A DNA stretch of 64,000 nucleotides from positions 10,966-74,965 of IMG/VR virus record IMGVR_UViG_3300021963_008193, one strand, 5' to 3'. The notes under the pieces are model-generated. The model did no database searches, was not told where the DNA came from, and worked only from the letters and a program-made list of their open reading frames with translations. The stretch is from a virus. The number at the start of each line of letters is the position of its first letter. Within the stretch, counting starts at the first letter, position 1. Both the position numbers and the translations under genes were made by a program. Of this stretch, positions 1,473 through 16,928 are shown in pieces.

Positions 1473-1485
1473 ACAAAAAAACATT

Positions 1486-1698
1486 ATGGACGAAAAGTAT
1501 TTTATTGCAAAAGTAACAATTGACTCAGTTGATTCTGAATCAGGAAAAGTTAAAAAATTAAGAGAGGAAAAATTAGTTAGAGGATATAGCCCGACAGATG
1601 TTGAGGCAAAAGTAACTAAGGTTTTTGAAACGTATTCTCAAGATTGGAGAATTACGGCAATTGTTGAAAGTAAAATTGATGAAGTGATAGAAGATTAA
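1486..1698 (+). CDS. Small protein resembling Bacteroidota DUF4494
   Basis: YFIAKV...GKVKKLREEKLV...S.TDVEAKV pattern, recognised by eye. Confidence 0.5.
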   Translation: MDEKYFIAKVTIDSVDSESGKVKKLREEKLVRGYSPTDVEAKVTKVFETYSQDWRITAIVESKIDEVIED

Positions 1699-1717
1699 AA
1701 ATTTCAATAATTAAATT

Positions 1718-1747
1718 AAAAGGAGACTCAAAAGGTCTCCTTTTTTT
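1718..1747 (+). terminator. Intrinsic terminator
   Basis: AAAAGGAGAC-TCAAAAG-GTCTCCTTTTTTT hairpin plus T-tract. Confidence 0.85.
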
Positions 1748-1862
1748 ATTTTTCTCATTTTGGGTAATATTTATTAAGGAATAAATAATCCACTGTCAAA
1801 TTAGTTTTATTTAAACTTTTTTGGTAAATGGTAATATTTATTATAAAAATATAAAACGCAAA

Positions 1863-3440
1863 ATGGCAAAAGAAAAATCATTAGTAGAAGATGCAATCAT
1901 TCAAATGAAAAATTTGGAGGAAGCGGTTGCCGAAAATGCAAAAGGAATACTTGCTTCAACAATGAAACAAGAAATCAAAGAATTGGTAAAAGAATCTCTA
2001 TTCGAACAAGAAGATGAAGATGAGATTGACGCAGATGTTGATGCTGACATGGAAGACATGGACGCTGAGGCAGATAACCAAGATATGGACGTTGAAGATG
2101 ACATGGACATGGACCCTGAAATGATGGGTGATGACATGGAAGAACCAATTGACTTAACTGGCAAATCAGACGAAGAAGTTCTTCGTGTATTTCAGTTGAT
2201 GGGTCCTGAGGATAATATCGTAGTAACAAAAGATACTAACGGTAACATTAACCTTAAAGACAACGAAGCTAATAAAGAATACATGATTGTTGGTGAAAGC
2301 GAAGAGGAAATGGAATTTAATGAAATGTGGGATGAGGAAGAAGAAGAAGACTTCTCATTTGACGATGAAGATGAATCTATTGACGAAATTGTTTCTAAAG
2401 TTTTTGGCGAGGACGACTCTGAAGAAATGGACATGGACATGATGGAAGAAGATGAAATGGACATGGAAGACATGATGGAACAAGAAGATGATGAATTAAT
2501 GGGTGACGCTGATATCGACAGTGAAGAAGAAATCGTTTACGAAATTTCTTTTGACGATGATGAAGCAGAATTAGACGAATGGGGACATTCTGAAAACCAA
2601 TTCATGAAACATCACTTTAACATGGATGACGAAGAAGACATGGATGACGAAGAAGAAATGGATTTTTCATTTGATGATGAAGAAGATATGGACGAAGAAG
2701 ACATGGATTTTGAAGCAATGATGGAATCTAAAAAGTCAATCAAACCAAAAGGAGTTGGAATGGGAAAAGGTCCTAACGTAAAAGTTTACCACGAAAAACC
2801 AAATCAAGGAACAGGTTTCAAAACAAAAATGAAACAAGGTCCAAAATCGGTTGGAACAGGTAAAGCGAAATTTGAATATAAAGAAGGTGAAAACTCAGGT
2901 GACAAACTTGGAAAAAACAAGATGGTCAAAAAAGTTGAAACCAAAGAAGGAGTTAGAACATTAGGTGCAGGAAGTAGAGCAGGAAGAAAAGGTGGTTTAC
3001 CAAAACCAAGAGCAGGTTCTGCATTTAACACGGCACTTAAAGAAAGTAACTCAAGAGAATTACAAGTTCTTAGAGAAAAGAATGAAGAATACAGAAAAGC
3101 GTTAAACATCTTCAGAAATAAATTGAATGAGGTTGCGGTATTCAACTCAAACTTAGCATACGCTACACGTTTGTTTACAGAACACTCAACATCTAAACAA
3201 GAAAAAATCAATATATTAAGAAGATTTGACGGTGTAGAAACAATCAAAGAATCTAAAGGACTATACAAAGTCATTAAAGATGAACTTTCAACTACAACAA
3301 GTCAACCAATGAATGAGTCATTTGAACGTAAAATCCAAAGCGTTCCTACAACAGGTTCGGCAGTTAACTTAATTGAGTCAAAAACATATGAAAATCCTCA
3401 ATTCCTTAGAATGAAAGATTTAATGGCTAAAATTAAATAA
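1863..3440 (+). CDS. Prohead core/scaffolding protein (highly acidic)
   Basis: Between protease and capsid genes; long D/E/M-rich region, C-terminal coiled coil, many (L/I)xE sites. Start moved to ATG 1863, after TATTTAT at 1835-1841. Confidence 0.8.
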   Translation: MAKEKSLVEDAIIQMKNLEEAVAENAKGILASTMKQEIKELVKESLFEQEDEDEIDADVDADMEDMDAEADNQDMDVEDDMDMDPEMMGDDMEEPIDLTGKSDEEVLRVFQLMGPEDNIVVTKDTNGNINLKDNEANKEYMIVGESEEEMEFNEMWDEEEEEDFSFDDEDESIDEIVSKVFGEDDSEEMDMDMMEEDEMDMEDMMEQEDDELMGDADIDSEEEIVYEISFDDDEAELDEWGHSENQFMKHHFNMDDEEDMDDEEEMDFSFDDEEDMDEEDMDFEAMMESKKSIKPKGVGMGKGPNVKVYHEKPNQGTGFKTKMKQGPKSVGTGKAKFEYKEGENSGDKLGKNKMVKKVETKEGVRTLGAGSRAGRKGGLPKPRAGSAFNTALKESNSRELQVLREKNEEYRKALNIFRNKLNEVAVFNSNLAYATRLFTEHSTSKQEKINILRRFDGVETIKESKGLYKVIKDELSTTTSQPMNESFERKIQSVPTTGSAVNLIESKTYENPQFLRMKDLMAKIK

Positions 3441-3473: not shown

Positions 3474-5375
3474 ATGGGAGCATTATTAGAATCAGGTCTT
3501 GTTGGTAACATCGGGTTAAAACACCTTAAAGTTATCAAAGAAGATACTATCAACAAATGGGATAAATTAGGATTCCTTGAAGGTCTTAGAGGCCACCTAA
3601 AAGAAAACGTAGCACAGTTGTATGAAAACCAAGCGTCTTTCTTAATCAACGAGGCTACATCAGAAGGGTCATCAGGTTCTTTCGAAACTGTTGTATTCCC
3701 TATCGTTAGACGTGTATTCTCTAAATTATTAGCGAACGACATCGTATCTGTACAAGCTATGAACTTACCTATCGGTAAATTGTTCTACTTCGTACCTAAA
3801 ATCCAAGGTTATAATGGAGGTCAAGTTCAAGGACCAGCAAATGATTACGCAGGTGAATCAGGAGCACATTACGCACCAATTGGAGCACCTAATGGACCAA
3901 CTGCTGCAGATGGTCAAGCAGGTATTGGTTACGGTCAAAACTCAACTTACGGTAAGAAAAATCTTTATGATTTATTTTACGAAGGTAACGAAGGTCAATT
4001 AGACCCTCCAGGATTATTTGATTACTCTAAAGGTCAATGGTCAGCAATGACAGTTGATACAACTTTACAAGTTTGGTCAAATGGTAGTTTACAAGACTCT
4101 AACGGAACCGATTTTGATAATCAAAACGTTAGAAAAGTAATTATCTCTATGTGTGGATTCGCATCTGCAGGTTCAGGTAAATTAATCGGACCTGATGGTA
4201 ATGAGTATGACTCAGAAACTTTCTTAGCTGATTTAAGAATTTATGCTAACGGTACTGCTAATGATGGTACTTGGTCAGCTGACACAGGATGTCAAGTTGC
4301 ATTTGGTGCACAAGGTCCAAATTCATTATTGTTTAGAGTTGTTACTCAACAATACGGACAAGGAATCGTTAATGGTTTAAATAATAGAGCTCAAGCACCT
4401 TGGCCTACTAACGGTGGTAACATCGAAGGTGGTGGTAACGGTGGTTACTTTAACGACATCTGTTCACCAACAGGTTGTATCTATTTAGAAGTTGACTTAT
4501 CATGTCCAGTATGTGCTGATTGTGGTGGTGGTACTTTAGATGGTTACACAGGAACTACACTTGGTGCTAATGTTGACCCTAACGCGTTCTCTGCAGTATT
4601 TAGACGTTACAAAGAATTAGAATTTGAAGACAAAATCGGTGAGGTTTCTTTCGAATTGGATTCTGTAACAGTTTCTGTAACTGAAAGAAAATTAAGAGCA
4701 CAATGGTCTCCTGAGTTAGCTCAAGACGTTGCGGCTTTCCATAACATCGACGCTGAGGCTGAGTTAACTGCATTGTTATCTGAGCAAGTTGCAGCTGAGA
4801 TTGACCGTGAAATTTTACGTGACTTACGTAAAGGAGCGGCTTGGAATTTACGTTGGGACTACAACGGATGGAGAAGAATCCAAAACACAACTAACTACAC
4901 TCAAAAAGATTGGAACCAAACATTGATTACTGCAATCAATCAGTTGTCAGCACAAATCCACAAATCTACTTTAAGAGGTGGAGCTAACTGGATTGTTGTT
5001 TCTTCTGAGGTTTCTGCAATCTTTGATGATTTAGAATACTTCCACGTATCTAACGCGTCTCCTGAGCAAGACCAATACAACATGGGTATTGAAAGAGTTG
5101 GTACATTAGCTGGTCGTTACCAAGTTTACCGTGACCCTTACTTCCCACCAAACCAAGTTTTGATTGGACACAAAGGAACGTCATTGTTAGACACAGGTTA
5201 CATCTACGCACCATACGTACCATTACAATTAACACCTACAATGTATAACCCATTCAACTTCACACCTATCAAAGGTATTATGACAAGATACGCTAAGAAA
5301 ATGGTTAATAACCGTTTCTACGGACGTATCACTGTTGATGGAGTACGTACATTTGATTTAAGAGAATTGAGATAA
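3474..5375 (+). CDS. Major capsid protein (T4 gp23-like)
   Basis: IVSVQAMNLPIGKLFY, RKLRAQWSPELAQD, AEAELTALLSEQVAAEIDREIL, GYIYAPYVPL and GIMTRY motifs; probable maturation site LINE60|A61. Confidence 0.96.
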   Translation: MGALLESGLVGNIGLKHLKVIKEDTINKWDKLGFLEGLRGHLKENVAQLYENQASFLINEATSEGSSGSFETVVFPIVRRVFSKLLANDIVSVQAMNLPIGKLFYFVPKIQGYNGGQVQGPANDYAGESGAHYAPIGAPNGPTAADGQAGIGYGQNSTYGKKNLYDLFYEGNEGQLDPPGLFDYSKGQWSAMTVDTTLQVWSNGSLQDSNGTDFDNQNVRKVIISMCGFASAGSGKLIGPDGNEYDSETFLADLRIYANGTANDGTWSADTGCQVAFGAQGPNSLLFRVVTQQYGQGIVNGLNNRAQAPWPTNGGNIEGGGNGGYFNDICSPTGCIYLEVDLSCPVCADCGGGTLDGYTGTTLGANVDPNAFSAVFRRYKELEFEDKIGEVSFELDSVTVSVTERKLRAQWSPELAQDVAAFHNIDAEAELTALLSEQVAAEIDREILRDLRKGAAWNLRWDYNGWRRIQNTTNYTQKDWNQTLITAINQLSAQIHKSTLRGGANWIVVSSEVSAIFDDLEYFHVSNASPEQDQYNMGIERVGTLAGRYQVYRDPYFPPNQVLIGHKGTSLLDTGYIYAPYVPLQLTPTMYNPFNFTPIKGIMTRYAKKMVNNRFYGRITVDGVRTFDLRELR

Positions 5376-5541: not shown

Positions 5542-7677
5542 ATGAAAAAAATACTAATCTTATTATCATTTCTAATTACCTCATCAATATTCTCACAGGT
5601 TAGTTACTACACATTTAGTGAAACTACGGGTACATACACATCAATAGTTGCTGGTACACAATTAGTAACAACTACAGGGGGTGCAACCGCTTATGATACT
5701 GACGGTAGTTATTTCACCCTACCCGTAGGTTCCCAATTTATATTTAATGGTACAACTATAACATCAGTTAATATGACCGCCGATGGTTCGGTTTGGTTAA
5801 ATCCAAATACTACAACAACAGGTAATAATGTTACAGGACCAATATCCTCTGCAGGAGTTGCTTCAGGAGTAATATCTGCGATGGGTATGGATTTAAGAAG
5901 TACCGCGATTTCAAGTCAAGTATATGAAAGAAGATGGCAAGATAACGGTACTGAAGTTATATTCCAATGGCAAAATGTTGCTAGATACTCAACAACAACA
6001 CCCTTTGTACAAAATGAAAGATTCTCATTTCAAGTAAGGGTAAATAAATCTACAGGGGTTGTTCGTATCATTTATGGTAATATGACCACAATTACTAGTA
6101 GTACTCAATATACACCTATGGTTGGTTTAAGAGGGTCTGTAAATACTGATTTTAATAATAGAAGATTAACAAATGCAATTCCTGATGCAACACCAAATTG
6201 GGGAGCACCGAATGGAACAACTGCAGGTACATCAAACGCACATACGGTTAGATTTACATCAACAGGGACCTGTTACCCAACTTCGGGATTAACATTTATA
6301 TGGACACCACCTGCGGTTCCATCAAATGACGCTTGTTCTAACGCCTCATTATTAACATTACAATGTCCTGGTTCCACCACAGGAACTATTGGGACGACTA
6401 TCGGTTCTATAACTACTGATGGGTTACCAAATCCTTCTTGTGATGCCACAGGAACTATTAGAGATGTGTGGTATTATTTTAATACGGGAAATAATACTGA
6501 AATGAACCTTTATGCGTCATTAGGGACCTCAACATGGATTGGTGTTGAAATTTATACTACTTGTGGTACATTGGCAACAGGATTAAATACTACATGTGAT
6601 TTTAATTTAATTTCACCAAATCCAACAAATATAACAGGTCTTTTAATGAATACAACATATCGTTTAAGAATTTTTACAAATGTGTCATATGACACTCCAG
6701 GAACTTTTACAATATATTTAAATACTGTAAATAATACATCAACACTTTCTTCAATAACAGGAACTGATAACCAAACTGTTTGTCAAAACACTTCAATAAC
6801 TAATATTACTTATAACACAAAAGGTGCGACAGGTTCTACCTTTTCAGGATTACCAACGGGAGTGTCGGGAAGTTGGAATAGTAATGTAGTAACGATTACG
6901 GGAACTCCATTAGTTTCAGGTACGTTTAATTATGTTATAACTCTTACGGGTGGTTGCGGTACAGTCACATCAAATGGTGCTATAACCGTCAATCCTACAG
7001 TTGTAACTATTTCATCAATAACAGGTAATCCAAACATAATTGCAGGTACAACTGAAAATTACTCAATACCGTCAGACCCAAATGCAACAACATATCAATG
7101 GGATTATAGGGAAAGTAGTACATCAAGTTGGGTCACTAATGTTTCAAACACTAACTCAGTAAGTATTACTTGGCCAACAACAACAACTGATGGTGAAGTT
7201 AAGATTACAGTGTCAAATAGTTGTAATACGGTAAATAAAAATTTGTTAATCCATGTTGACGGTATCCTACCTGTTGAATTACTGTATTTTGAAGGTAAAC
7301 CCGTTTCAAATACTAACTACTTATATTGGTCAACCGCGTCAGAACATAACTCAGATTATTTTGAAATTCTACACAGTGTGAATGGTGAAGTATGGGAATC
7401 TATTGGACAAATTACTTCATCAGGTAATTCAACAATCAAAAACGACTATCACTATTATCATAACTCACCCGAACACGTATTTAATTATTACATATTAAAA
7501 CAAGTTGATTATGATGGTGTGTATAAAACCTATAATCCAATTGTGATTAATAACAGAATTAAAGACAAAAAAATTATAAAGTACACTAACATCCTTGGAC
7601 AAGAAGTGGGACCAAATGAAAATGGTGTTATTTTTATCACTTATGAGGATAATTCAGTGATAAAAACCGTAAAATAA
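5542..7677 (+). CDS. Secreted Bacteroidota-type surface protein, T9SS-cargo-like
   Basis: Sec signal peptide MKKILILLSFLITSSIFS|Q; beta-rich domains; PSNDACSNA motif; LPVELLYF...W.TASE.NSDYFEI domain; CTD-like tail YTNILGQEV...GVIFITY.D...K.VK. Confidence 0.75.
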   Translation: MKKILILLSFLITSSIFSQVSYYTFSETTGTYTSIVAGTQLVTTTGGATAYDTDGSYFTLPVGSQFIFNGTTITSVNMTADGSVWLNPNTTTTGNNVTGPISSAGVASGVISAMGMDLRSTAISSQVYERRWQDNGTEVIFQWQNVARYSTTTPFVQNERFSFQVRVNKSTGVVRIIYGNMTTITSSTQYTPMVGLRGSVNTDFNNRRLTNAIPDATPNWGAPNGTTAGTSNAHTVRFTSTGTCYPTSGLTFIWTPPAVPSNDACSNASLLTLQCPGSTTGTIGTTIGSITTDGLPNPSCDATGTIRDVWYYFNTGNNTEMNLYASLGTSTWIGVEIYTTCGTLATGLNTTCDFNLISPNPTNITGLLMNTTYRLRIFTNVSYDTPGTFTIYLNTVNNTSTLSSITGTDNQTVCQNTSITNITYNTKGATGSTFSGLPTGVSGSWNSNVVTITGTPLVSGTFNYVITLTGGCGTVTSNGAITVNPTVVTISSITGNPNIIAGTTENYSIPSDPNATTYQWDYRESSTSSWVTNVSNTNSVSITWPTTTTDGEVKITVSNSCNTVNKNLLIHVDGILPVELLYFEGKPVSNTNYLYWSTASEHNSDYFEILHSVNGEVWESIGQITSSGNSTIKNDYHYYHNSPEHVFNYYILKQVDYDGVYKTYNPIVINNRIKDKKIIKYTNILGQEVGPNENGVIFITYEDNSVIKTVK

Positions 7678-7691
7678 AAGTATTTATATGT

Positions 7692-8108
7692 ATGAATACT
7701 TTAAGAGGATTAATTAAGGAAAATCTTTTATTAGAAAAACGAATTGGGCAAATCTCGGCCAATTTTGAGATTGTGTTTGGTTTTGATGTAATTACCACTA
7801 AACATTCTAAAGATAGAAGTGGTGGTAGAGAAGAACTCGAGGGATACAACCAAAGACCTGTCGATAATAAAGAAATTGTTGAGGTTCTTAATATGTTCAA
7901 GAAAGACATTGCCGAAAAAATTATCATGGGAGAAATAAAAGACCAAGAAAATTTTGTGGTAATTTCAAATCAATGGGAATTAGCCATGGCAATTATCCCT
8001 GAAAAAGAATCGAACACTTATTGGAAATTAATAGTTAGAACAGTATTTAGACAATCAGATACTCATAAGTTCTTATATGGAAGAAACCAAGTGGTTTTGG
8101 AAAAATAA
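7692..8108 (+). CDS. Hypothetical protein with (L/I)xE leader; possible DUF4258/BECR-like RNase fold
   Basis: Leader MNTLRGLIKENLLLE; TKHSKDR and terminal LIVRTVFR resemble the HAxxR...VxTV pattern. Fold is inferred. Confidence 0.4.
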   Translation: MNTLRGLIKENLLLEKRIGQISANFEIVFGFDVITTKHSKDRSGGREELEGYNQRPVDNKEIVEVLNMFKKDIAEKIIMGEIKDQENFVVISNQWELAMAIIPEKESNTYWKLIVRTVFRQSDTHKFLYGRNQVVLEK

Positions 8109-8186
8109 ATGAGGGTTGTATCTAAATCGTTGCCTCCCCCATTTCCTGTAATTAATTGTATCTAAATCGTTACCTTCAATCACAGT
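8101..8186 (-). ncRNA. Candidate structured small RNA with two hairpins carrying near-identical 20-nt loops
   Basis: Stems 8185-8176/8155-8146 and 8144-8136/8115-8107; loops AGG(U/C)AACGAUUUAGAUACAA; G-U pairs work only on the minus strand; promoter directly upstream and U-tract downstream. Confidence 0.7.
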
Positions 8187-8187
8187 A

Positions 8188-8218
8188 CAAAGATACACAT
8201 TTTTCGGACATTTACAAA
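8188..8218 (-). promoter_or_regulatory. Consensus Bacteroidota -33/-7 promoter
   Basis: Minus strand TTTG (8218-8215), 19 nt, TATCTTTG (8195-8188); matches TTTG-N19-21-TAnnTTTG. Confidence 0.8.
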
Positions 8219-8260
8219 CTTTTTTTATCTAATTCGGGATATTTATATAAAAAAGTTAAA

Positions 8261-8785
8261 ATGAAAAGATTAATCATAAATGAAAGTGAACGAGAGTTAA
8301 TTAAACTACTTCATGAATCCGCGATTAAAAAAGAAAAAAGAAATTTAATTTCCGAGGCTAACGGTCAGTCTAAAGAAGAATACCAAGCATGTATCAAACA
8401 AATGGGGTCCCCATCCCCAACTACCTCAGGACAATGGAGTATTGGTGGAATTAGGTCATTAAAAGGATATCAATTCTATTCCAACATGAGGGTTAGGAAA
8501 CCTGATGGAGGAATGACTAACTACTCATGTTCAGGTAATAAAATAGTTATTGATGGTAAAACCTATACAGTATCAAATGGTACTAAAAAAAGTTATAGTT
8601 ATTACATTAAACAAGCTCAAACATTGTTAGGTGTTCCTACAACAGGTATTGTTGATGATAAAACATTAGAAGCCGCTAAGACAAAACTTGGAGGAGGTGC
8701 AACACCATCCTCAACAACTGATTCATCATCAACAACTACAACAACAACGGTTGCACCTGTTACAACAACAAGTTTAGACCTTTAA
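8261..8785 (+). CDS. Putative virion protein with leader, PG-binding-like motif and Thr-rich tail
   Basis: Start reassigned to ATG 8261 after TATTTAT 8240-8246. Leader MKRLIINESERELIKLLHE...LISE|A; motif IKQAQTLLGVPTTGIVDDKTLEA. Confidence 0.6.
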   Translation: MKRLIINESERELIKLLHESAIKKEKRNLISEANGQSKEEYQACIKQMGSPSPTTSGQWSIGGIRSLKGYQFYSNMRVRKPDGGMTNYSCSGNKIVIDGKTYTVSNGTKKSYSYYIKQAQTLLGVPTTGIVDDKTLEAAKTKLGGGATPSSTTDSSSTTTTTTVAPVTTTSLDL

Positions 8786-9357: not shown

Positions 9358-9738
9358 TTAAACCACGATACAATCAATAATTCTACTTGCGGTAGAATAG
9401 TTGGTGGCTAACGGAACGTCATGGACGTTACAAATTCTTAATAACATACTAACATCCACTTGATGTGGATGAACTTCTAAAGGGTCGATGAAGAATATAA
9501 CTACATCGACTTCTTTATTTATAATCATTGATGCAATCTGAGCATCACCACCCATTGGTCCACTGAATACTGTTTGAACTTTCTGTAACCCCGCGTGAAT
9601 TAAGTGTTTTCCCGTTGTCCCCGTTGCAACAACTTCAACATTGTTTGAGGTGAAGAACGGTAAACGTTTCATAACAAATGAAACCATATCAGCCTTCTTC
9701 CCATCATGAGCAATTAACGCTAATTTAATTTTGTTCAT
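9358..9738 (-). CDS. mgsA: Methylglyoxal synthase
   Basis: ALIAHDGKK, ATGTTG, SGPMGGDAQI, IFFIDPL..HPH.VDV..LLR.C.VH..PLATN motifs. Confidence 0.95.
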   Translation of the reverse strand: MNKIKLALIAHDGKKADMVSFVMKRLPFFTSNNVEVVATGTTGKHLIHAGLQKVQTVFSGPMGGDAQIASMIINKEVDVVIFFIDPLEVHPHQVDVSMLLRICNVHDVPLATNYSTASRIIDCIVV

Positions 9739-9961
9739 CAACTTCTTCTTTTTTTGATAATACTCGAATACATTTGGAAATCACTTCAGATTCACCTAAA
9801 GAATAAACACCTGATTCATGGGCATATTTAACGGCTTGTACCAATAGATAGATTGAATGGTCTTTATCCATAGTCTGTAATAATACATCCAAATGGTCTT
9901 CATTAAGTAATGGGACCGAATTAAATAATTTCCCAAATAATTGTTGTTCTTCCATTTCCAT
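9725..9961 (-). CDS. Hypothetical protein
   Basis: 78-aa ORF overlapping the mgsA start. Confidence 0.55.
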   Translation of the reverse strand: MEMEEQQLFGKLFNSVPLLNEDHLDVLLQTMDKDHSIYLLVQAVKYAHESGVYSLGESEVISKCIRVLSKKEEVDEQN

Positions 9962-12445: not shown

Positions 12446-15400
12446 TTAATAGTAATAGTTTATTATTTCGTAAGCCTCTACACCTCCTGTAGTAAATATC
12501 GGACCGTTAGCCAATACATTATCAATATTTGTTTTAGTCATTGTACGTGTTGTAACATACTCAGTAACTCCTGTTCTAACGTATAATATAGTGCTAAGTA
12601 ATTGTCCACAATCTTCACAACTATTGTAACTTGTAAAATCAGTTGCGGTAAATAATGAGAAATTAAGTGCGTTTACAAATGGTGATTCACTTGACCAAGT
12701 CACTCCTGTATTTGATGAACTTTGTCCTGCACAAATATCGTTATCTAAATTATCTTCATCGTTTGAGGTTATTAACAATATTACATTTGCGTCACAAGTT
12801 AATGGTGATGTTGGGACTGTTATGTTTGGTCCTGAATAGATAGCTGATTGGTTATTTATTCTAAAATTTGTTATATATCCTTTGAATATACCATCATTAT
12901 CGGTTTGATTACCAATAACCAAAGGGTATGTGTTTGCTAAGTCAATACTATAAGGTTCTTCAGATACGACACGTAGACCATCAACATATACACTCCATAA
13001 ATGTTGTGACCCATTAAAGTATCTTGTTATTGCGAAATGAATCCATTTATTTTCTAAATCAGTTAAATTAAGACCTAAATTATATGTTTGACCATCACCA
13101 ATCCAAAGAAGTCCTCCACCTTCAAAGGAAATTTGAAGTACGTTAGTCCCACCACCATAAGTACCTATTGAGAACGGTCTTGCTGGCGTATTTACCTCAC
13201 CTCCCCAATATTGGAACCATTCTATAGTTAAATCCCATTCACCTGCTCCCCCAAATCCAAATTGACCAGCTGAGTTATCAACTTGGACCATAGTATTATT
13301 ATCACCACCAAAGTACATACTACCACCGATACCACCACTTTGAGTTAATTGTGGTGTTGTTATTACTCCATTGTCAAGACCACACACTGCAGCTCTATTA
13401 TTTACGTTTGCTTTGATTATACCTAATTGAGTATCATTGGTTGGTAAATAGATATTTGACAATGAATTATCACAAGTAATAAATGAATGTAACTCATATT
13501 CTTCTCCGATGAACAATTCTAATAGTCGGTCATAAGGACTATTAAATCTACCACCTACTAATAATCTTCCTGAAGATAGTAATAAAGTTTTATTTACGTA
13601 ATCATCATCTAAATCAAAAGTAAACGTCTCATCTAAAGTACCATTTGAATTTAATCTTACTAAATATGGGATATTATTATGAGCACTATTATTATCTTCA
13701 TAATCGTTAAATTGTCCACCAAGCATAATTTTACCATTTGGTAAAAGAGAAGCTGACAATACTGCCCCATCAAATCCCCCATTATTATCCCAATTACGAG
13801 TTGTAAATGTTTCATCAATAACATATTGTCTATTAACTTTAACTAATCTAACAATATTTTGAGGAATCCAAGTATTATTATAATCTCGAAGGTATCCTCC
13901 ATCGGCACCACCAATAATAACTAACTTACCGTCAGGTTGTGTTAATATTTGATTCACTCTTGGTCTACTTCCAGTGTCAACGTTAAATCCATCACCAAAG
14001 TCAGGTAATATTTCACCTGTTGGGGACAATTTAACAATACCACCTACGTTAGTTCCGTTATACCAATTAAACCAACCCCCAACAACAATGTTTTCGGTGT
14101 AAGTTACGGGTCCATTTTCATTATAAAAAGGGGTGTTTCTAATTGATTCGATATTGATTGTAAATACATCATCTCCGTCAAATCCATCTCCCATAACAAA
14201 TGTTCTATCAGGAGTACCATTAGAATTTAATCTAACAATTTGAGGACAGTAGAAATCATAGTAATAACTAAAACCACCACCTACAACAATTTTACCGTCT
14301 TTTTGGATAGCAATAGCTCTAACTATACCATTAAATTCACTATTAAAGGTAAATCCTGAGTCGATAGTTCCATCAGAATTTAATCTAATTATACGTCCAG
14401 CATTATATCCGTCATAATTTGTGAAATTACCACCTACTAATATTTTACCATCGGGTTGTAAAGCAATTGCTCTAATATAATTATTGAATTGTCCTAAGTA
14501 GAATGTTTCGTCTAAACTTCCGTCAGGATTTATTCTCATAAAATTACCGACAGGAACCTCAAGATAGTCATTAAAATTACCACCAACTAATATCTTACCA
14601 TCAGGTTGTTCTACCATTGTATAAACTAAACTACCGTCAAACCCTGTGTTACGGAAACCTCCATTTAAAACACCTTCAGGACTTACCTTAGTTAAACCTA
14701 ATGAACATAAATCTTCATAACTTTCGGAGTTTATATCTCCTAAATTAACAAAACTATAAATCTCAGGAGTTCCACCTGAAATAAATTCATAAGGTCCATA
14801 TGAGTAGTAATTAAATAAAACCTTAACAGGATTGTCACCTGTAGGTATTAATAACGCGGTTGGTCCATAAATTGCTTTATGAATTAATGGATAAGTACTT
14901 TCCATTTCTGTACAAGAATTTGCTCCATAAATTAAACCATTTGAGTCTACCGCTTCCTCACAAGAAGAATAAGGTGCGTAATTAATTGAAGGTAAATAAT
15001 CCCAAATAGGGTAAGGGACATTCCAATTCTCGTCTGTTTTTATCTGAGCGGCGAACTTACTAAAAGTTCTACCATCCGCGTCATAAATCATATCGATATA
15101 TAAAATGTCACCAACCTCATATTTTTTATCAACAACCCAGAATGTCATACCATCGTCAATATAAGGAAAATAACAATCCTCAACTGTAACTAATTTATAG
15201 TTATCTATGTAAGCGTCGCCACAATAACTGTAAGAGTTAACCTCCACATATTCAATAAGATTGGACGGGTAACTATAATCAATGTAACCACAAACAGTCA
15301 CCGATGGATTTCGTAGACTTTGGAAACTATGAACTGATTCGAATTCTAAAGGAGTCATTGACCCTACCACATAGGTAATTCTTTCGTCCATTAATGGTCG

Positions 15401-16891
15401 TGCACATGCTACAACATTATATGTATATGGGTATACTGAAATTGAGTTATGTAATCTACCGAAGTAGTTAAGTGGGTATACCGTTGGGTCTGCGTTACCA
15501 AAAAAACCACCAATTAAAATATTATCATCTTCTAAAATGGTGATATACTCAACACCACTATTTAAAATGTCATCATAAGAAAAACTATAATCAAATGAAC
15601 AATCAGAATGAAATCTAACCAACTCATCTATAGGAAGTCTATTATTATTGTTATCATAATAGTTATTAAAGTAGCCACCAACTAATATTTTACCATCAGA
15701 TTGTATTGCTAATGAGTGTACTTGATTATCTAATCCGTAACCAAATAAAGTATCTAACGTACCATTAGAACTTAATCTAACAATGTGACCACTAAATAAA
15801 TCATTATTGTCAAATAAATAAAAATACCCACCAACAATAATTTTACCGTCTGATTGTAATGCAATTGTCATAACCTCAGTATCAAATCCATTCCCTGTTT
15901 GGAATGTTGTATCTAAAGTACCATCAGAATTTAATCTTGTAATATAATTTTGAGTACTAAACCCATAAGTTGTAAAGTAACCCCCTACCAATATTTTACC
16001 ATCTGATTGTAATTCAATTACATTTACATAACAATCATCGGGACCACTAAATGCAACATCACCATCACCAATTAAGAATGAACTATCAATACTACCATTA
16101 GAGTTTAATCTAATGATACGATATGCGTCTATATTATTATATTGTGTAAATTCACCACCAACTATTATTTTACCATCAGGTTGTACGTGAATATCGTAAA
16201 CATTCCCGTTAAATCCATCACCAATATTAAATGTTGTATCTCTACTACCATCAGAATTCAATCTAATTATACTATTAAAAGTATCACAGTCACCGTCTCT
16301 ATCAAATCGTGTAAAAGCACCACCCACTAATATCTTTCCGTCAGGTTGTATCTCAAGTGTGTAAACAGTATCATCAAAACCTCCACCATAACAATCCTCA
16401 TTATATGAGATATCAAATGATTCGTCAATTGTACCGTCAGTGTTTAGTCTTATTAAACGATTATTTCTGTAAGAGTCACCATTATAATAGTAGTTAACAA
16501 ATCCTCCACCAATTACATATCTTCCATCGGAATCCACCGCAATATGATATACCGCACCGTCAAATCCATCTACTCCAAAACCACCACCCGCAGGGAATGA
16601 ATAATCAACTGTACCTGCGGTAAATGGTAAATCAATACCTTGAGGAACTGTTAATGAACGTCTATTGGATACCGTTTGAGTTTGAGTTGTTGCAGTTATA
16701 AAAACAGGTTCTGAATTTTTAGTTCTAGACGGACCATTTTGAGGTGTTTTATTAATGGTTACAGGACCCTCAATAATAGGTGAAGACATGTTTAAGGTTT
16801 GTGTGGAACCACTAAGATTTGTTTTAATCAAGTCTAATGTAGTAAATTCGGTATTACCACCCCATCCGTTAAATTTTGATTTGTTAGTCAT
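12446..16891 (-). CDS. Large delta-60 repeat (DUF5122-type beta-propeller) protein with C-terminal LamG/ConA-like domain; putative adhesin/fibre
   Basis: Two blocks of Q(P/S)DGKI(L/I)VGG.F...I.RLNSDG..D..F repeats; C-terminal TIEWF, W.HFAITR, VYVDG and F.GYITNFRI motifs. Start at ATG 16891 after TATTTAT. Confidence 0.85.
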   Translation of the reverse strand: MTNKSKFNGWGGNTEFTTLDLIKTNLSGSTQTLNMSSPIIEGPVTINKTPQNGPSRTKNSEPVFITATTQTQTVSNRRSLTVPQGIDLPFTAGTVDYSFPAGGGFGVDGFDGAVYHIAVDSDGRYVIGGGFVNYYYNGDSYRNNRLIRLNTDGTIDESFDISYNEDCYGGGFDDTVYTLEIQPDGKILVGGAFTRFDRDGDCDTFNSIIRLNSDGSRDTTFNIGDGFNGNVYDIHVQPDGKIIVGGEFTQYNNIDAYRIIRLNSNGSIDSSFLIGDGDVAFSGPDDCYVNVIELQSDGKILVGGYFTTYGFSTQNYITRLNSDGTLDTTFQTGNGFDTEVMTIALQSDGKIIVGGYFYLFDNNDLFSGHIVRLSSNGTLDTLFGYGLDNQVHSLAIQSDGKILVGGYFNNYYDNNNNRLPIDELVRFHSDCSFDYSFSYDDILNSGVEYITILEDDNILIGGFFGNADPTVYPLNYFGRLHNSISVYPYTYNVVACARPLMDERITYVVGSMTPLEFESVHSFQSLRNPSVTVCGYIDYSYPSNLIEYVEVNSYSYCGDAYIDNYKLVTVEDCYFPYIDDGMTFWVVDKKYEVGDILYIDMIYDADGRTFSKFAAQIKTDENWNVPYPIWDYLPSINYAPYSSCEEAVDSNGLIYGANSCTEMESTYPLIHKAIYGPTALLIPTGDNPVKVLFNYYSYGPYEFISGGTPEIYSFVNLGDINSESYEDLCSLGLTKVSPEGVLNGGFRNTGFDGSLVYTMVEQPDGKILVGGNFNDYLEVPVGNFMRINPDGSLDETFYLGQFNNYIRAIALQPDGKILVGGNFTNYDGYNAGRIIRLNSDGTIDSGFTFNSEFNGIVRAIAIQKDGKIVVGGGFSYYYDFYCPQIVRLNSNGTPDRTFVMGDGFDGDDVFTINIESIRNTPFYNENGPVTYTENIVVGGWFNWYNGTNVGGIVKLSPTGEILPDFGDGFNVDTGSRPRVNQILTQPDGKLVIIGGADGGYLRDYNNTWIPQNIVRLVKVNRQYVIDETFTTRNWDNNGGFDGAVLSASLLPNGKIMLGGQFNDYEDNNSAHNNIPYLVRLNSNGTLDETFTFDLDDDYVNKTLLLSSGRLLVGGRFNSPYDRLLELFIGEEYELHSFITCDNSLSNIYLPTNDTQLGIIKANVNNRAAVCGLDNGVITTPQLTQSGGIGGSMYFGGDNNTMVQVDNSAGQFGFGGAGEWDLTIEWFQYWGGEVNTPARPFSIGTYGGGTNVLQISFEGGGLLWIGDGQTYNLGLNLTDLENKWIHFAITRYFNGSQHLWSVYVDGLRVVSEEPYSIDLANTYPLVIGNQTDNDGIFKGYITNFRINNQSAIYSGPNITVPTSPLTCDANVILLITSNDEDNLDNDICAGQSSSNTGVTWSSESPFVNALNFSLFTATDFTSYNSCEDCGQLLSTILYVRTGVTEYVTTRTMTKTNIDNVLANGPIFTTGGVEAYEIINYYY

Positions 16892-16928
16892 TTTACTTTT
16901 TTTATTTATAAATATCAATTTATTATGA

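What the first reader, a model, noticed from the sequence alone, without database searches (positions are those of the whole stretch)
8101..8218. Unannotated ~85-nt RNA: two unrelated stems present nearly the same 20-nt loop
Seen on the minus strand, directly after a consensus Bacteroidota promoter: CUGUGAUUGA-[AGGUAACGAUUUAGAUACAA]-UUAAUUACAG-G-AAAUGGGGG-[AGGCAACGAUUUAGAUACAA]-CCCUCAUUU-AUUUUU. The loops are 19/20 identical while the 10-bp and 9-bp stems share no sequence. Three positions are A-C mismatches on the plus strand but G-U pairs on the minus strand, agreeing with the promoter direction. No plausible ORF follows the promoter. Inference: an early bivalent decoy or aptamer RNA that titrates a protein (anti-defence, antitoxin mimic or translational regulator). 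The loop shares UUAGAUAC with the 16S rRNA 790 loop, which may be chance. I do not recognise it as a known family.
Basis: partly seen in the sequence, partly recalled or inferred. Interest (0 to 1): 0.85.

Follow-up and report, generated by a model that had tools for sequence, protein, structure and literature searches.

The report
Phage small RNA showing repeated loop
This is a real, uncatalogued ~85-base small RNA gene of a large T4-like phage of Bacteroidota that shows one fixed 20-base sequence twice on the tips of two unrelated hairpins, belongs to a widespread phage RNA family, and most likely binds and restrains a protein, the best candidate being the RNA-cutting-type protein encoded tail-to-tail with it.

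Summary
On the minus strand a full Bacteroidota promoter (TTTG-N19-TATCTTTG) is followed by two hairpins (10 bp and 9 bp). Each has the loop AGGYAACGAUUUAGAUACAA, and a U-run follows.

It is a member of a large RNA family that is absent from Rfam. The stems covary strongly, and G-U pairs outnumber A-C pairs 32 to 3. The loop core ACGAUUnAGAUAC is nearly invariant.

The unit occurs in three forms:
- 2-4 hairpins behind their own promoter, with the last hairpin acting as terminator;
- a single hairpin with its own promoter, in two records near GOLLD RNA;
- a single hairpin as a spacer inside phage tRNA arrays.

In 57 of 80 loci found through the protein alone, the RNA abuts the stop codon of a 138-aa protein family, convergently. 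That family (P0001) has a weak RelE/RegB-like fold. The pair stays together across about 10 different flanking contexts. Distant P0001 homologues instead sit beside S1-domain genes.

No base-pairing target beat shuffled controls. Expression and binding are untested.

Best reading (0.45): an early multivalent protein-binding RNA that restrains P0001.

This scan had already reported the same family on other genomes.

The parts
8215..8218 (-). -33 box TTTG of a Bacteroidota-type promoter
   Evidence: The box sits 19 nt upstream of the -7 box. The pair is one of 4 full consensus matches in the window.
8188..8195 (-). -7 box TATCTTTG (consensus TAnnTTTG)
   Evidence: Among related loci, 33 of 36 unique RNA loci have TAnnTTTG upstream, and in 27 the box ends exactly 17 nt before the ACGAUU core.
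8101..8185 (-). Predicted ~85-nt small RNA: two hairpins plus a U-run. The start is inferred from the promoter and the end from the terminator.
   Evidence: Fold, family architecture, CM hit of 55.9 bits at E 4e-14.
8146..8185 (-). Hairpin 1: 10-bp stem (8176-8185 pairs with 8146-8155) and 20-nt loop at 8156-8175
   Evidence: Stem covariation.
8107..8144 (-). Hairpin 2: 9-bp G-rich stem (8136-8144 pairs with 8107-8115) and 20-nt loop at 8116-8135. It doubles as an intrinsic terminator.
   Evidence: 31 of 36 related loci have a T-run after the last hairpin.
8101..8106 (-). AUUUUU run. It overlaps the last codon and the stop codon of the convergent gene.
7692..8108 (+). P0001, 138 aa. It is the convergent neighbour whose stop codon lies inside the RNA's terminator, has a weak RelE/RegB-like fold, and is the candidate partner.
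7681..7688 (+). TATTTATA motif 3 nt before the P0001 start codon. It is a phage promoter-like motif resembling the T4 late promoter.
   Evidence: The same motif lies 3-22 nt before 8 window ORFs (7692, 8261, 10001, 39278, 40213, 58973-, 60123- and, as TATAAATA, 50232) and before P0001 homologues in other loci.

Best explanation
The locus is a gene for an ~85-nt non-coding RNA. Unmodified host RNA polymerase would transcribe it from a consensus Bacteroidota promoter, so it is probably made immediately after infection. It runs antisense to the surrounding capsid-region genes.

The RNA consists of two hairpins with free-to-vary stems. Their only conserved job is to hold out the same 20-nt single-stranded loop, rGGnAACGAUUnAGAUACAA. 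The second hairpin also terminates transcription.

The RNA acts in trans as a multivalent, sequence-specific ligand for a protein. The most likely partner is P0001, the 138-aa protein encoded tail-to-tail with it. P0001 probably has a RelE/RegB-type ribonuclease fold. Its gene carries the phage's own TATTTATA promoter-like motif and usually sits directly behind the major capsid protein gene. Its N-terminus has a conserved [LIV]-x-E site of the kind cut by T4-type prohead proteases, so it may be packaged and injected.

In this model the loops are pseudo-substrates or decoys that bind and restrain the nuclease, which times its activity.

Shown here: the RNA structure, its strand, family membership, promoter and terminator geometry, and the genetic linkage with P0001.

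Inferred: expression time, protein binding, nuclease activity, packaging.
For: RNA gene:
- A scan of viral contigs for the 16-mer gave 69 loci. All nine with 2-3 copies show promoter, then 2-4 hairpins with different stems and the same loop, then a U-run.
- On 29 in-register units, 85.5% of cells are paired against 51.5% in shuffles. The covariation score is 0.954 against 0.277 (0 of 500 shuffles reach it), and slid controls give 0.14-0.31. The inner five pairs are 100% paired, with 4-6 pair types each.
- G-U against A-C in the stems is 32:3 and 28:2.
- The hairpin lies in sense orientation 4-22 nt from tRNA genes in phage tRNA arrays.

Linkage with P0001:
- Of 80 loci fetched through the protein alone, 57 have the RNA on the opposite strand directly after its stop codon.
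- The pair persists with at least 10 different upstream and at least 10 different downstream neighbour families.
- It persists down to 38% protein identity.

P0001:
- The AlphaFold model has pLDDT 83.9.
- About 30 of the top 50 structural matches are RelE, HigB, ParE, YoeB, BrnT, colicin E5/D or CdiA-CT RNase-type toxins. The best is Z 5.7, and T4 RegB (2hx6) gives Z 3.8 over 94 residues.
- H38 is invariant, and E15, W111, T117 and Q133 are nearly invariant across 36 sequences.
- Distant homologues lie within 1 kb of multi-S1-domain genes in three records. T4 RegB needs ribosomal protein S1, and the review of T4 post-transcriptional control raised a possible anti-RegB partner (PMC3014915).
- The window encodes a T4-type prohead protease, Peptidase_S77, E 2.5e-23. 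Such proteases cut after Glu, and T4 head and internal proteins carry 10-20-residue N-terminal targeting peptides (PMC5694885; PMC3012670).

Against base pairing, which favours a protein ligand:
- The loop core shows no transition substitutions but has one freely variable position.
- No target in the window or in host rRNAs beats shuffled loops.
Against: - No transcript data and no binding data exist.
- All fold matches of P0001 have Z below 8, the range the tool calls possibly a common arrangement. There is no sequence-level link to RelE or RegB.
- The linkage is not obligate. 23 of 80 P0001 loci lack the adjacent RNA. In one clade the hairpin sits 23 kb away in a complete 321-kb genome. In 8 loci a different structured small RNA occupies the slot.
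- Hairpin-bearing records G002, G003 and G005 show no P0001 homologue, but they are only 38-73% complete.
- RelE-type enzymes normally act on ribosome-bound mRNA, for which a free RNA decoy is not an obvious inhibitor.
- If P0001 is made late while the RNA is made early, the timing model needs either a stable RNA or an injected enzyme. Both are unproven.
Confidence: 0.45

Rival explanations
1. The RNA is a sponge or decoy for a host factor and is independent of P0001. Candidates are ribosomal protein S1 or another single-strand RNA-binding protein, a translation or ribosome factor that recognises a 16S-like sequence, or a host RNA-targeting defence nuclease. The adjacency with P0001 would reflect a favoured site for early small-RNA genes.
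For: - The loop is essentially invariant across phages whose proteins have diverged to 38% identity, and it also occurs away from P0001, in tRNA arrays and next to GOLLD RNA.
- A different small RNA can occupy the same slot.
- The conserved core with its one variable base removed reads GAUUAGAUAC, the 16S 790-loop sequence. AGGCAACGAU is an exact 10-mer of a Flavobacteriales 16S. The best local alignment to 16S is reached by 48 of 2000 shuffles.
- In three records an S1-domain gene neighbours the P0001 homologue.
Against: - The P0001-RNA pair is kept together across about 10 different contexts on each side, which passive synteny or a 'hot spot' does not explain well.
- The 16S likeness is post hoc, only about p 0.02-0.1. 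It includes a position that varies among loops, and the closing stem of the 790 hairpin is absent.
- The model was not found in 150 other sampled Bacteroidia genomes, so there is no host RNA that it copies.
Confidence: 0.27
2. The RNA is a base-pairing regulator. Its two loops are redundant seeds that pair with a phage or host RNA.
For: Bacteroidota lack Hfq and often use exposed loops as seeds (own knowledge). The loops are long, unstructured and duplicated.
Against: - The best duplexes with any site in the 64-kb window, apart from its own antisense strand, are -17.6 kcal/mol. Shuffled loops reach -16.3 to -20.9.
- The best duplex with host 16S or 23S is -12.1, reached by 7 of 40 shuffles.
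- No other site in the window matches 17 or more of 20 bases on either strand.
- An 18-mer scan of one genome from each of 185,579 species found no conserved cellular RNA gene.
- The core shows no wobble-compatible substitutions but has one fully free position in its middle.
Confidence: 0.08
3. The element acts in cis, as a bidirectional terminator or antisense element that insulates or destabilises read-through transcripts of P0001 and the next gene. The conserved loop would be incidental.
For: The RNA's terminator overlaps the P0001 stop codon, and the whole RNA is perfectly complementary to any plus-strand read-through. The arrangement resembles convergent type I toxin-antitoxin pairs.
Against: - Antisense action needs no conserved loop, yet the loop is invariant while the stems drift.
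- The plus-strand hairpins are weak, z = -0.42, and lack a T-run.
- The same hairpin works as a stand-alone gene and inside tRNA arrays, far from P0001.
Confidence: 0.08
4. The element works at the DNA level: protein operator sites, cruciforms or a mobile hairpin element rather than an RNA.
For: There are two direct 20-bp repeats 40 bp apart in an intergenic region between two plus-strand genes.
Against: - The G-U against A-C asymmetry is 32:3 and 28:2.
- The promoter is at a fixed 17-nt distance and a U-run follows.
- Orientation always matches that of flanking tRNAs.
- Stems covary.
Confidence: 0.03

Closest known systems
Type III toxin-antitoxin systems (ToxIN, CptIN, TenpIN) and phage pseudo-ToxI mimics
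   Same: A repeated RNA unit is encoded next to a small endoribonuclease-type gene, and the RNA presumably binds and neutralises the protein. Phages are known to carry such RNAs.
   Different: Here the RNA is convergent, not upstream on the same strand. The units are hairpins with unrelated stems and a shared loop, not tandem ~36-nt direct repeats. The protein is not ToxN/AbiQ-like: there is no PADLOC or Pfam hit and the fold is RelE-like. Processing of the RNA by the protein is unknown. The module belongs to the phage, in its capsid gene region.
CsrB/RsmY/RsmZ-type protein-sequestering sRNAs
   Same: A short transcript is made of several hairpins that each show the same motif in the loop, with a terminator hairpin that also carries a copy. 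The logic is multivalent titration.
   Different: The motif here is a 20-nt near-invariant sequence, not GGA. At the corresponding place the loops read GGnA with a free third base. No CsrA-type partner is identified. The RNA is phage-encoded in Bacteroidota.
T4 RegB endoribonuclease with ribosomal protein S1 (PMC3014915)
   Same: Both are small phage proteins with a RelE/YoeB-like fold plus an extra N-terminal segment. RegB recognises an unpaired GG(A) followed by a long single-stranded 3' context (an 11-nt site). There is an S1 connection, since three P0001 homologues sit beside S1-domain genes. The review explicitly asks whether an anti-RegB partner exists.
   Different: There is no sequence similarity and the structural match is only Z 3.8. 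RegB is an early gene, whereas P0001 carries the phage's own promoter-like motif behind the capsid gene. No RNA partner is known for RegB. The loop does not fit the RegB site consensus.
Convergent type I toxin-antitoxin pairs (antisense RNA overlapping the toxin mRNA 3' end)
   Same: The arrangement is tail-to-tail, with the RNA's 3' end overlapping the end of the protein gene.
   Different: The overlap is only ~8 nt. P0001 is not a small hydrophobic peptide. The conserved part of the RNA is the loop, not the complementarity.

Membership tests
Any Rfam 15 family | Match at or above the family's gathering score | tested here: not met
   There were 0 matches in the whole window at gathering thresholds. 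At E up to 10 over 7900-8450 only chance-level hits appeared, none on the two-hairpin structure as such: mir-BART2 at 21.8 bits against a threshold of 60, and Flavo-1 at 13.9 bits against 42 at a different place and strand.
Type III toxin-antitoxin (ToxIN-like) | Antitoxin is an array of tandem direct repeats upstream of the toxin on the same strand, separated from it by a terminator | tested here: not met
   The RNA is convergent with P0001. Its units share only the loop and its stems are unrelated.
Type III toxin-antitoxin (ToxIN-like) | Toxin belongs to the ToxN/AbiQ/CptN/TenpN endoribonuclease families | tested here: not met
   No PADLOC, Pfam, NCBIfam or PHROG hit.
Type III toxin-antitoxin (ToxIN-like) | Toxin cleaves the precursor RNA into units and is inhibited by them | not testable with these tools
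   Needs biochemistry.
CsrB/Rsm-type sponge RNA | Multiple loops carrying GGA that bind CsrA/RsmA | tested here: not met
   Multiple identical loops are present, but the third base after GG is free (A, C, G or U). The conserved part is ACGAUUnAGAUAC.
RelE/RegB (BECR-type) ribonuclease fold, for the neighbour P0001 | Beta-alpha-alpha-beta-beta-beta core fold shared with solved RelE, YoeB, HigB or RegB structures | tested here: inconclusive
   RelE-family and related RNase toxins make up about 30 of the top 50 matches, at Z 3.0-5.7. RegB (2hx6) gives Z 3.8, rmsd 4.5 and 94 aligned residues. All are below the tool's Z 8 caution line. Foldseek gives no E <= 0.001.
RelE/RegB (BECR-type) ribonuclease fold, for the neighbour P0001 | Sequence-profile relationship to a known family | tested here: not met
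   The profile search against PDB sequences found only chance hits at E 0.35. No Pfam family at E up to 10 is shared by more than 2 of the 18 members.
RelE/RegB (BECR-type) ribonuclease fold, for the neighbour P0001 | Ribonuclease activity with conserved catalytic residues | not testable with these tools
   H38 is invariant and R42 nearly invariant among close members, with a second His in distant members. Their roles are unknown.
Intrinsic (Rho-independent) terminator | G+C-rich stem followed directly by a U-run | tested here: met
   Hairpin 2 has the stem AAAUGGGGG/CCCUCAUUU followed by AUUUUU. 31 of 36 related loci have a T-run after the last hairpin. The 20-nt conserved loop is atypical for a plain terminator.
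RNA anti-CRISPR (solitary CRISPR-repeat mimic) | Sequence copies a CRISPR repeat of the host | tested here: not met
   An 18-mer scan of one genome from each of 185,579 species gave 35 loci, about the chance number, and none is a repeat-spacer array. The model was not found in 150 other sampled Bacteroidia genomes.

The most novel reading that the evidence does not exclude
The pair is a new kind of toxin and RNA-antidote module used by the phage itself. In this reading a RelE/RegB-fold ribonuclease is made late, targeted into the capsid through a cleavable N-terminal peptide and injected with the DNA to shut down host translation. It is then switched off within minutes by an early, host-promoter-driven small RNA whose identical loops act as multivalent pseudo-substrates. 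In relatives, an S1-domain protein takes part in the same circuit.
Probability: 0.2. Interest if true: 0.85.

Novelty: new variant of a known kind. Interest (0 to 1): 0.7.

Why it matters
Small RNAs of phages that infect Bacteroidota are almost unknown, and this phylum lacks Hfq, ProQ and CsrA. Here is a widespread family with unusually clean comparative support. It is found in large aquatic T4-like and jumbo phages, and its only conserved feature is a 20-nt displayed loop, which points to a specific, still unidentified RNA-protein recognition.

If the partner is the RelE/RegB-like neighbour, three things would follow:
- It would be the first RNA inhibitor of a RelE-fold nuclease.
- It would answer in part the old question of whether phage RegB-type nucleases have an antidote.
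- It would give a compact RNA-protein pair of possible use as a tool.

The appearance of the same hairpin inside tRNA arrays and next to GOLLD RNA also ties it to the poorly understood non-coding RNA islands of huge phages.

Tried and rejected
- **Rfam:** searched at gathering and permissive thresholds and found nothing. The other small-RNA loci and the Clostridia look-alike also gave nothing, apart from GOLLD.
- **Phage isolates:** a DNA similarity search against 50,697 phage records gave no match. By protein, only one uncultured 634-kb phage matched.
- **RNA sequencing runs:** no RNA holder was listed, so read laying was not used and expression could not be examined.
- **The look-up of encoding contigs:** I used the search for related loci instead.
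- **Base-pairing targets:** searches in the window and in 16S and 23S of a Flavobacteriales genome found nothing above shuffled loops.
- **16S mimicry:** the best local alignment was reached by 48 of 2000 shuffles and partly rests on a variable loop position. I kept it only as a minor lead.
- **P0001 by sequence:** Pfam, PHROGs, NCBIfam, PADLOC and a PDB sequence profile gave no family. The ESM Atlas gave only unnamed viral clusters and a sub-threshold DUF4258 lead at 0.78.
- **First AlphaFold model:** the model from 18 sequences had pLDDT 78.7 and a disordered stretch at residues 32-48. The 36-sequence model replaced it.
- **P0002:** the relative of P0002 in L072 has no RNA copy, so P0002 is not the linked gene.
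- **Single 16-mer hits without a stem:** many of the 69 viral and 35 genomic loci are of this kind. I treated them as chance, since their number is about what chance predicts.
- **Complex prediction:** not used, because it cannot take an RNA partner.

Full report
**1. The observation**

- TTTG lies at 8218-8215, followed by a 19-nt spacer and TATCTTTG at 8195-8188.
- A 10-bp hairpin occupies 8185-8146 and a 9-bp hairpin occupies 8144-8107. AUUUUU follows at 8106-8101.
- The two 20-nt loops (8175-8156 and 8135-8116) differ at one base, and the stems are unrelated.
- The 20-mer, allowing up to 3 mismatches, occurs nowhere else in the window. Shuffles expect 0.03 matches.
- The minus strand folds into exactly these hairpins, at -23.5 kcal/mol, z = -3.43. 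The plus strand does not stand out from shuffles, z = -0.42.
- The promoter is one of only four full TTTG-N19-21-TAnnTTTG matches on both strands of 64 kb.

**2. Setting**

The window is part of a 75-kb viral record, about 26% complete.
- It encodes a T4-type prohead protease (Peptidase_S77, 750-1472) and a gp23-type major capsid protein (3474-5375).
- It also encodes a 711-aa protein with T9SS-associated and PKD-like domains. The record is therefore a large T4-like phage of Bacteroidota.
- The RNA lies between two plus-strand genes. P0001 (7692-8108) has its stop codon inside the RNA's terminator, and P0002 occupies 8261-8785.

**3. It is a family**

Scanning viral contigs for the loop 16-mer gave 69 loci.
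- The nine loci with 2-3 copies all show the same plan: TAnnTTTG, then 2-4 hairpins with different stems and the same loop, with the last hairpin G-rich and followed by a U-run.
- Many single-copy loci also hold the motif in a hairpin loop.
- On 29 in-register units, the ten pairs next to the loop are 85.5% paired, against 51.5% when partners are shuffled. The covariation score is 0.954 against 0.277 (0 of 500 shuffles reach it), and slid registers give 0.14-0.31.
- The five inner pairs are paired in all 29 units, with 4-6 pair types each.
- G-U pairs outnumber A-C 32:3. On 41 further distinct rows the ratio is 28:2. This fixes the functional strand as RNA.
- The loop core ACGAUUnAGAUAC is nearly invariant, with one free position.

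**4. Three architectures**
- **(i) Own promoter with 2-4 hairpins.** Among 36 distinct loci of this kind, 33 have TAnnTTTG upstream. In 27 the box ends exactly 17 nt before the core. 31 have a T-run after the last hairpin.
- **(ii) A single hairpin with its own promoter and an A- or U-rich tail.** In a complete 321-kb genome and in another record it lies about 0.5 kb upstream of a GOLLD RNA (RF02032, 298-322 bits), among other small promoter-driven RNAs.
- **(iii) A single hairpin as a spacer in phage tRNA arrays.** It is on the tRNA strand, 4-22 nt before a tRNA. RNase P and RNase Z processing would release it (inference).

**5. Not catalogued, and not cellular**
- Rfam 15 has no match.
- An 18-mer scan of one genome from each of 185,579 species gave 35 loci, about the chance number. 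Only a few Bacteroidota MAG contigs show the hairpin.
- The covariance model found nothing in 150 other sampled Bacteroidia genomes.
- This scan had already reported the same family on other genomes (e1-5837316, e1-6065000, e1-6065014), with a similar reading. I re-derived the points cited here independently.

**6. The neighbour, P0001**
- P0001 belongs to a family with 128 representative clusters and no annotation. No profile library recognises it.
- With a 36-sequence alignment, AlphaFold gives pLDDT 83.9.
- An exhaustive structural comparison lists mostly RNase-type toxins of the RelE, HigB, ParE, YoeB, BrnT, colicin E5/D and CdiA-CT kind. The best is Z 5.7. T4 RegB gives Z 3.8 over 94 residues.
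- The enrichment is suggestive, but every Z is under the tool's caution line.
- H38 is invariant, and E15, W111, T117 and Q133 are nearly so.
- In many loci the gene directly follows the capsid gene and its terminator.
- TATTTATA precedes it 3-10 nt before the ATG. The same motif lies before 7 other window ORFs, including P0002, and resembles the T4 late promoter TATAAATA.
- Its N-terminus carries a near-universal [LIV]-x-E at residues about 12-17.
- T4-type prohead proteases cut after Glu. T4 head and internal proteins have 10-20-residue N-terminal capsid-targeting peptides (PMC5694885; PMC3012670).
- Packaging and injection of P0001 is thus a reasonable inference and no more than that.

**7. 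Linkage**
- In 80 loci fetched through the protein alone, the RNA model hits the opposite strand directly after the stop codon in 57.
- Among RNA-positive loci, the gene upstream of P0001 falls into about 10 unrelated families, and so does the gene beyond the RNA. The two genes therefore travel as a cassette.
- There are exceptions. One clade (15 loci) has lost the adjacent RNA but keeps a single hairpin 23 kb away.
- Eight loci carry a different ~150-nt pseudoknotted small RNA in the same slot.
- Distant P0001 homologues in three records lie within 1 kb of a multi-S1-domain protein gene. Those records are a 634-kb phage, G166 and G167. G166 and G167 carry the hairpin elsewhere on the record; the rest of the 634-kb phage was not searched for it.
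- T4 RegB is stimulated up to 100-fold by ribosomal protein S1. It recognises an unpaired GGA plus a long 3' context. [quoted passage not shown]

**8. Mechanism**
- The pattern is a fixed single-stranded sequence with one free base, no wobble-type drift and arbitrary stems, present in 1-4 copies. This fits recognition by a protein better than base pairing.
- Direct searches for pairing partners found nothing above shuffled controls.
- I therefore favour a multivalent protein ligand, with P0001 as the most likely partner (0.45).
- A host-factor sponge is the main rival (0.27).
- The 16S likeness is real but weak. GAUUAGAUAC is the 790-loop sequence once the free base is removed. AGGCAACGAU matches another 16S segment.

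**9. Limits**
- There are no expression data: no RNA run was listed.
- No binding test was possible.
- No cultured carrier phage is known.
- Most records are fragments, so genome-level co-occurrence is only indicative.

Noticed in passing
L209 (LR745206.1) 1477-3042; L204 1501-3052; L205/L206: Distant P0001 homologues lie within 1 kb of a 363-aa protein with S1 RNA-binding domains (Pfam S1, E 4e-22) in three records: convergent in two and tandem in one. No S1 domain is found in G000 or in the two complete genomes G161 and G164.
   Followed up: partly
L201 2029-2422 (+); L032 4099-4492 (-): GOLLD RNA (RF02032, 298-322 bits) lies about 0.5 kb downstream of the stand-alone hairpin gene. The region is a cluster of small promoter-driven RNAs in jumbo phage genomes.
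   Followed up: partly
L160, L161, L165, L166, L167, L176, L193, L198, directly after the P0001 homologue, minus strand of the locus: A different ~150-nt small RNA sits in the same slot. It has its own Bacteroidota promoter, an apparent H-type pseudoknot (GGGUUGAACCGAGAUUACCCUnACAACUCGG) and a strong terminator. It has no Rfam match.
   Followed up: partly
L201 about 1330-1420; L199; L032 next to the hairpin: Another conserved short RNA candidate (UUUGACAC...AUGAAAGAUACUCGG...A-run) with its own TAnnTTTG promoter flanks the stand-alone hairpin in at least three records.
   Followed up: no
L025 8770-10072 (-): The phage tRNA array next to the hairpin holds a tRNA with anticodon CTA (amber-suppressor type) and two tRNA-like genes with irregular anticodon loops.
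   Followed up: no
L073, L081-L083, L087, L089-L091, L098, L100, L103, L105-L107 (gut Clostridia and other MAG contigs): A conserved element, ATTACAAAACGGTAACGATTTAGATACAATGGTATTGTACA, contains the same 18-mer. Here it is paired with an upstream inverted partner (TGTATCnnAATCG). It has no Rfam match and is probably unrelated to the phage RNA.
   Followed up: partly
window, 3-22 nt before the start codons at 7692, 8261, 10001, 39278, 40213, 50232, 58973(-), 60123(-): A recurrent TATTTATA/TATAAATA motif lies just upstream of start codons. It is probably the phage's own (late-type) promoter and implies very short leaders.
   Followed up: partly
window 5542-7677 (+): A 711-aa gene with T9SS-associated galactose-binding-like and PKD-like domains is inserted between the capsid gene and P0001. 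In many relatives P0001 follows the capsid gene directly.
   Followed up: partly
window 9358-9741 (-) and 12446-16918 (-): The first is a 127-aa protein with an MGS-like domain. The second is a 1490-aa protein with DUF5122 beta-propeller repeats, WD40 and a laminin-G-like domain.
   Followed up: no
L014 6779-6943 (-): Two tandem copies of the two-hairpin RNA gene give four loops in a row. L019 likewise has four hairpins.
   Followed up: no
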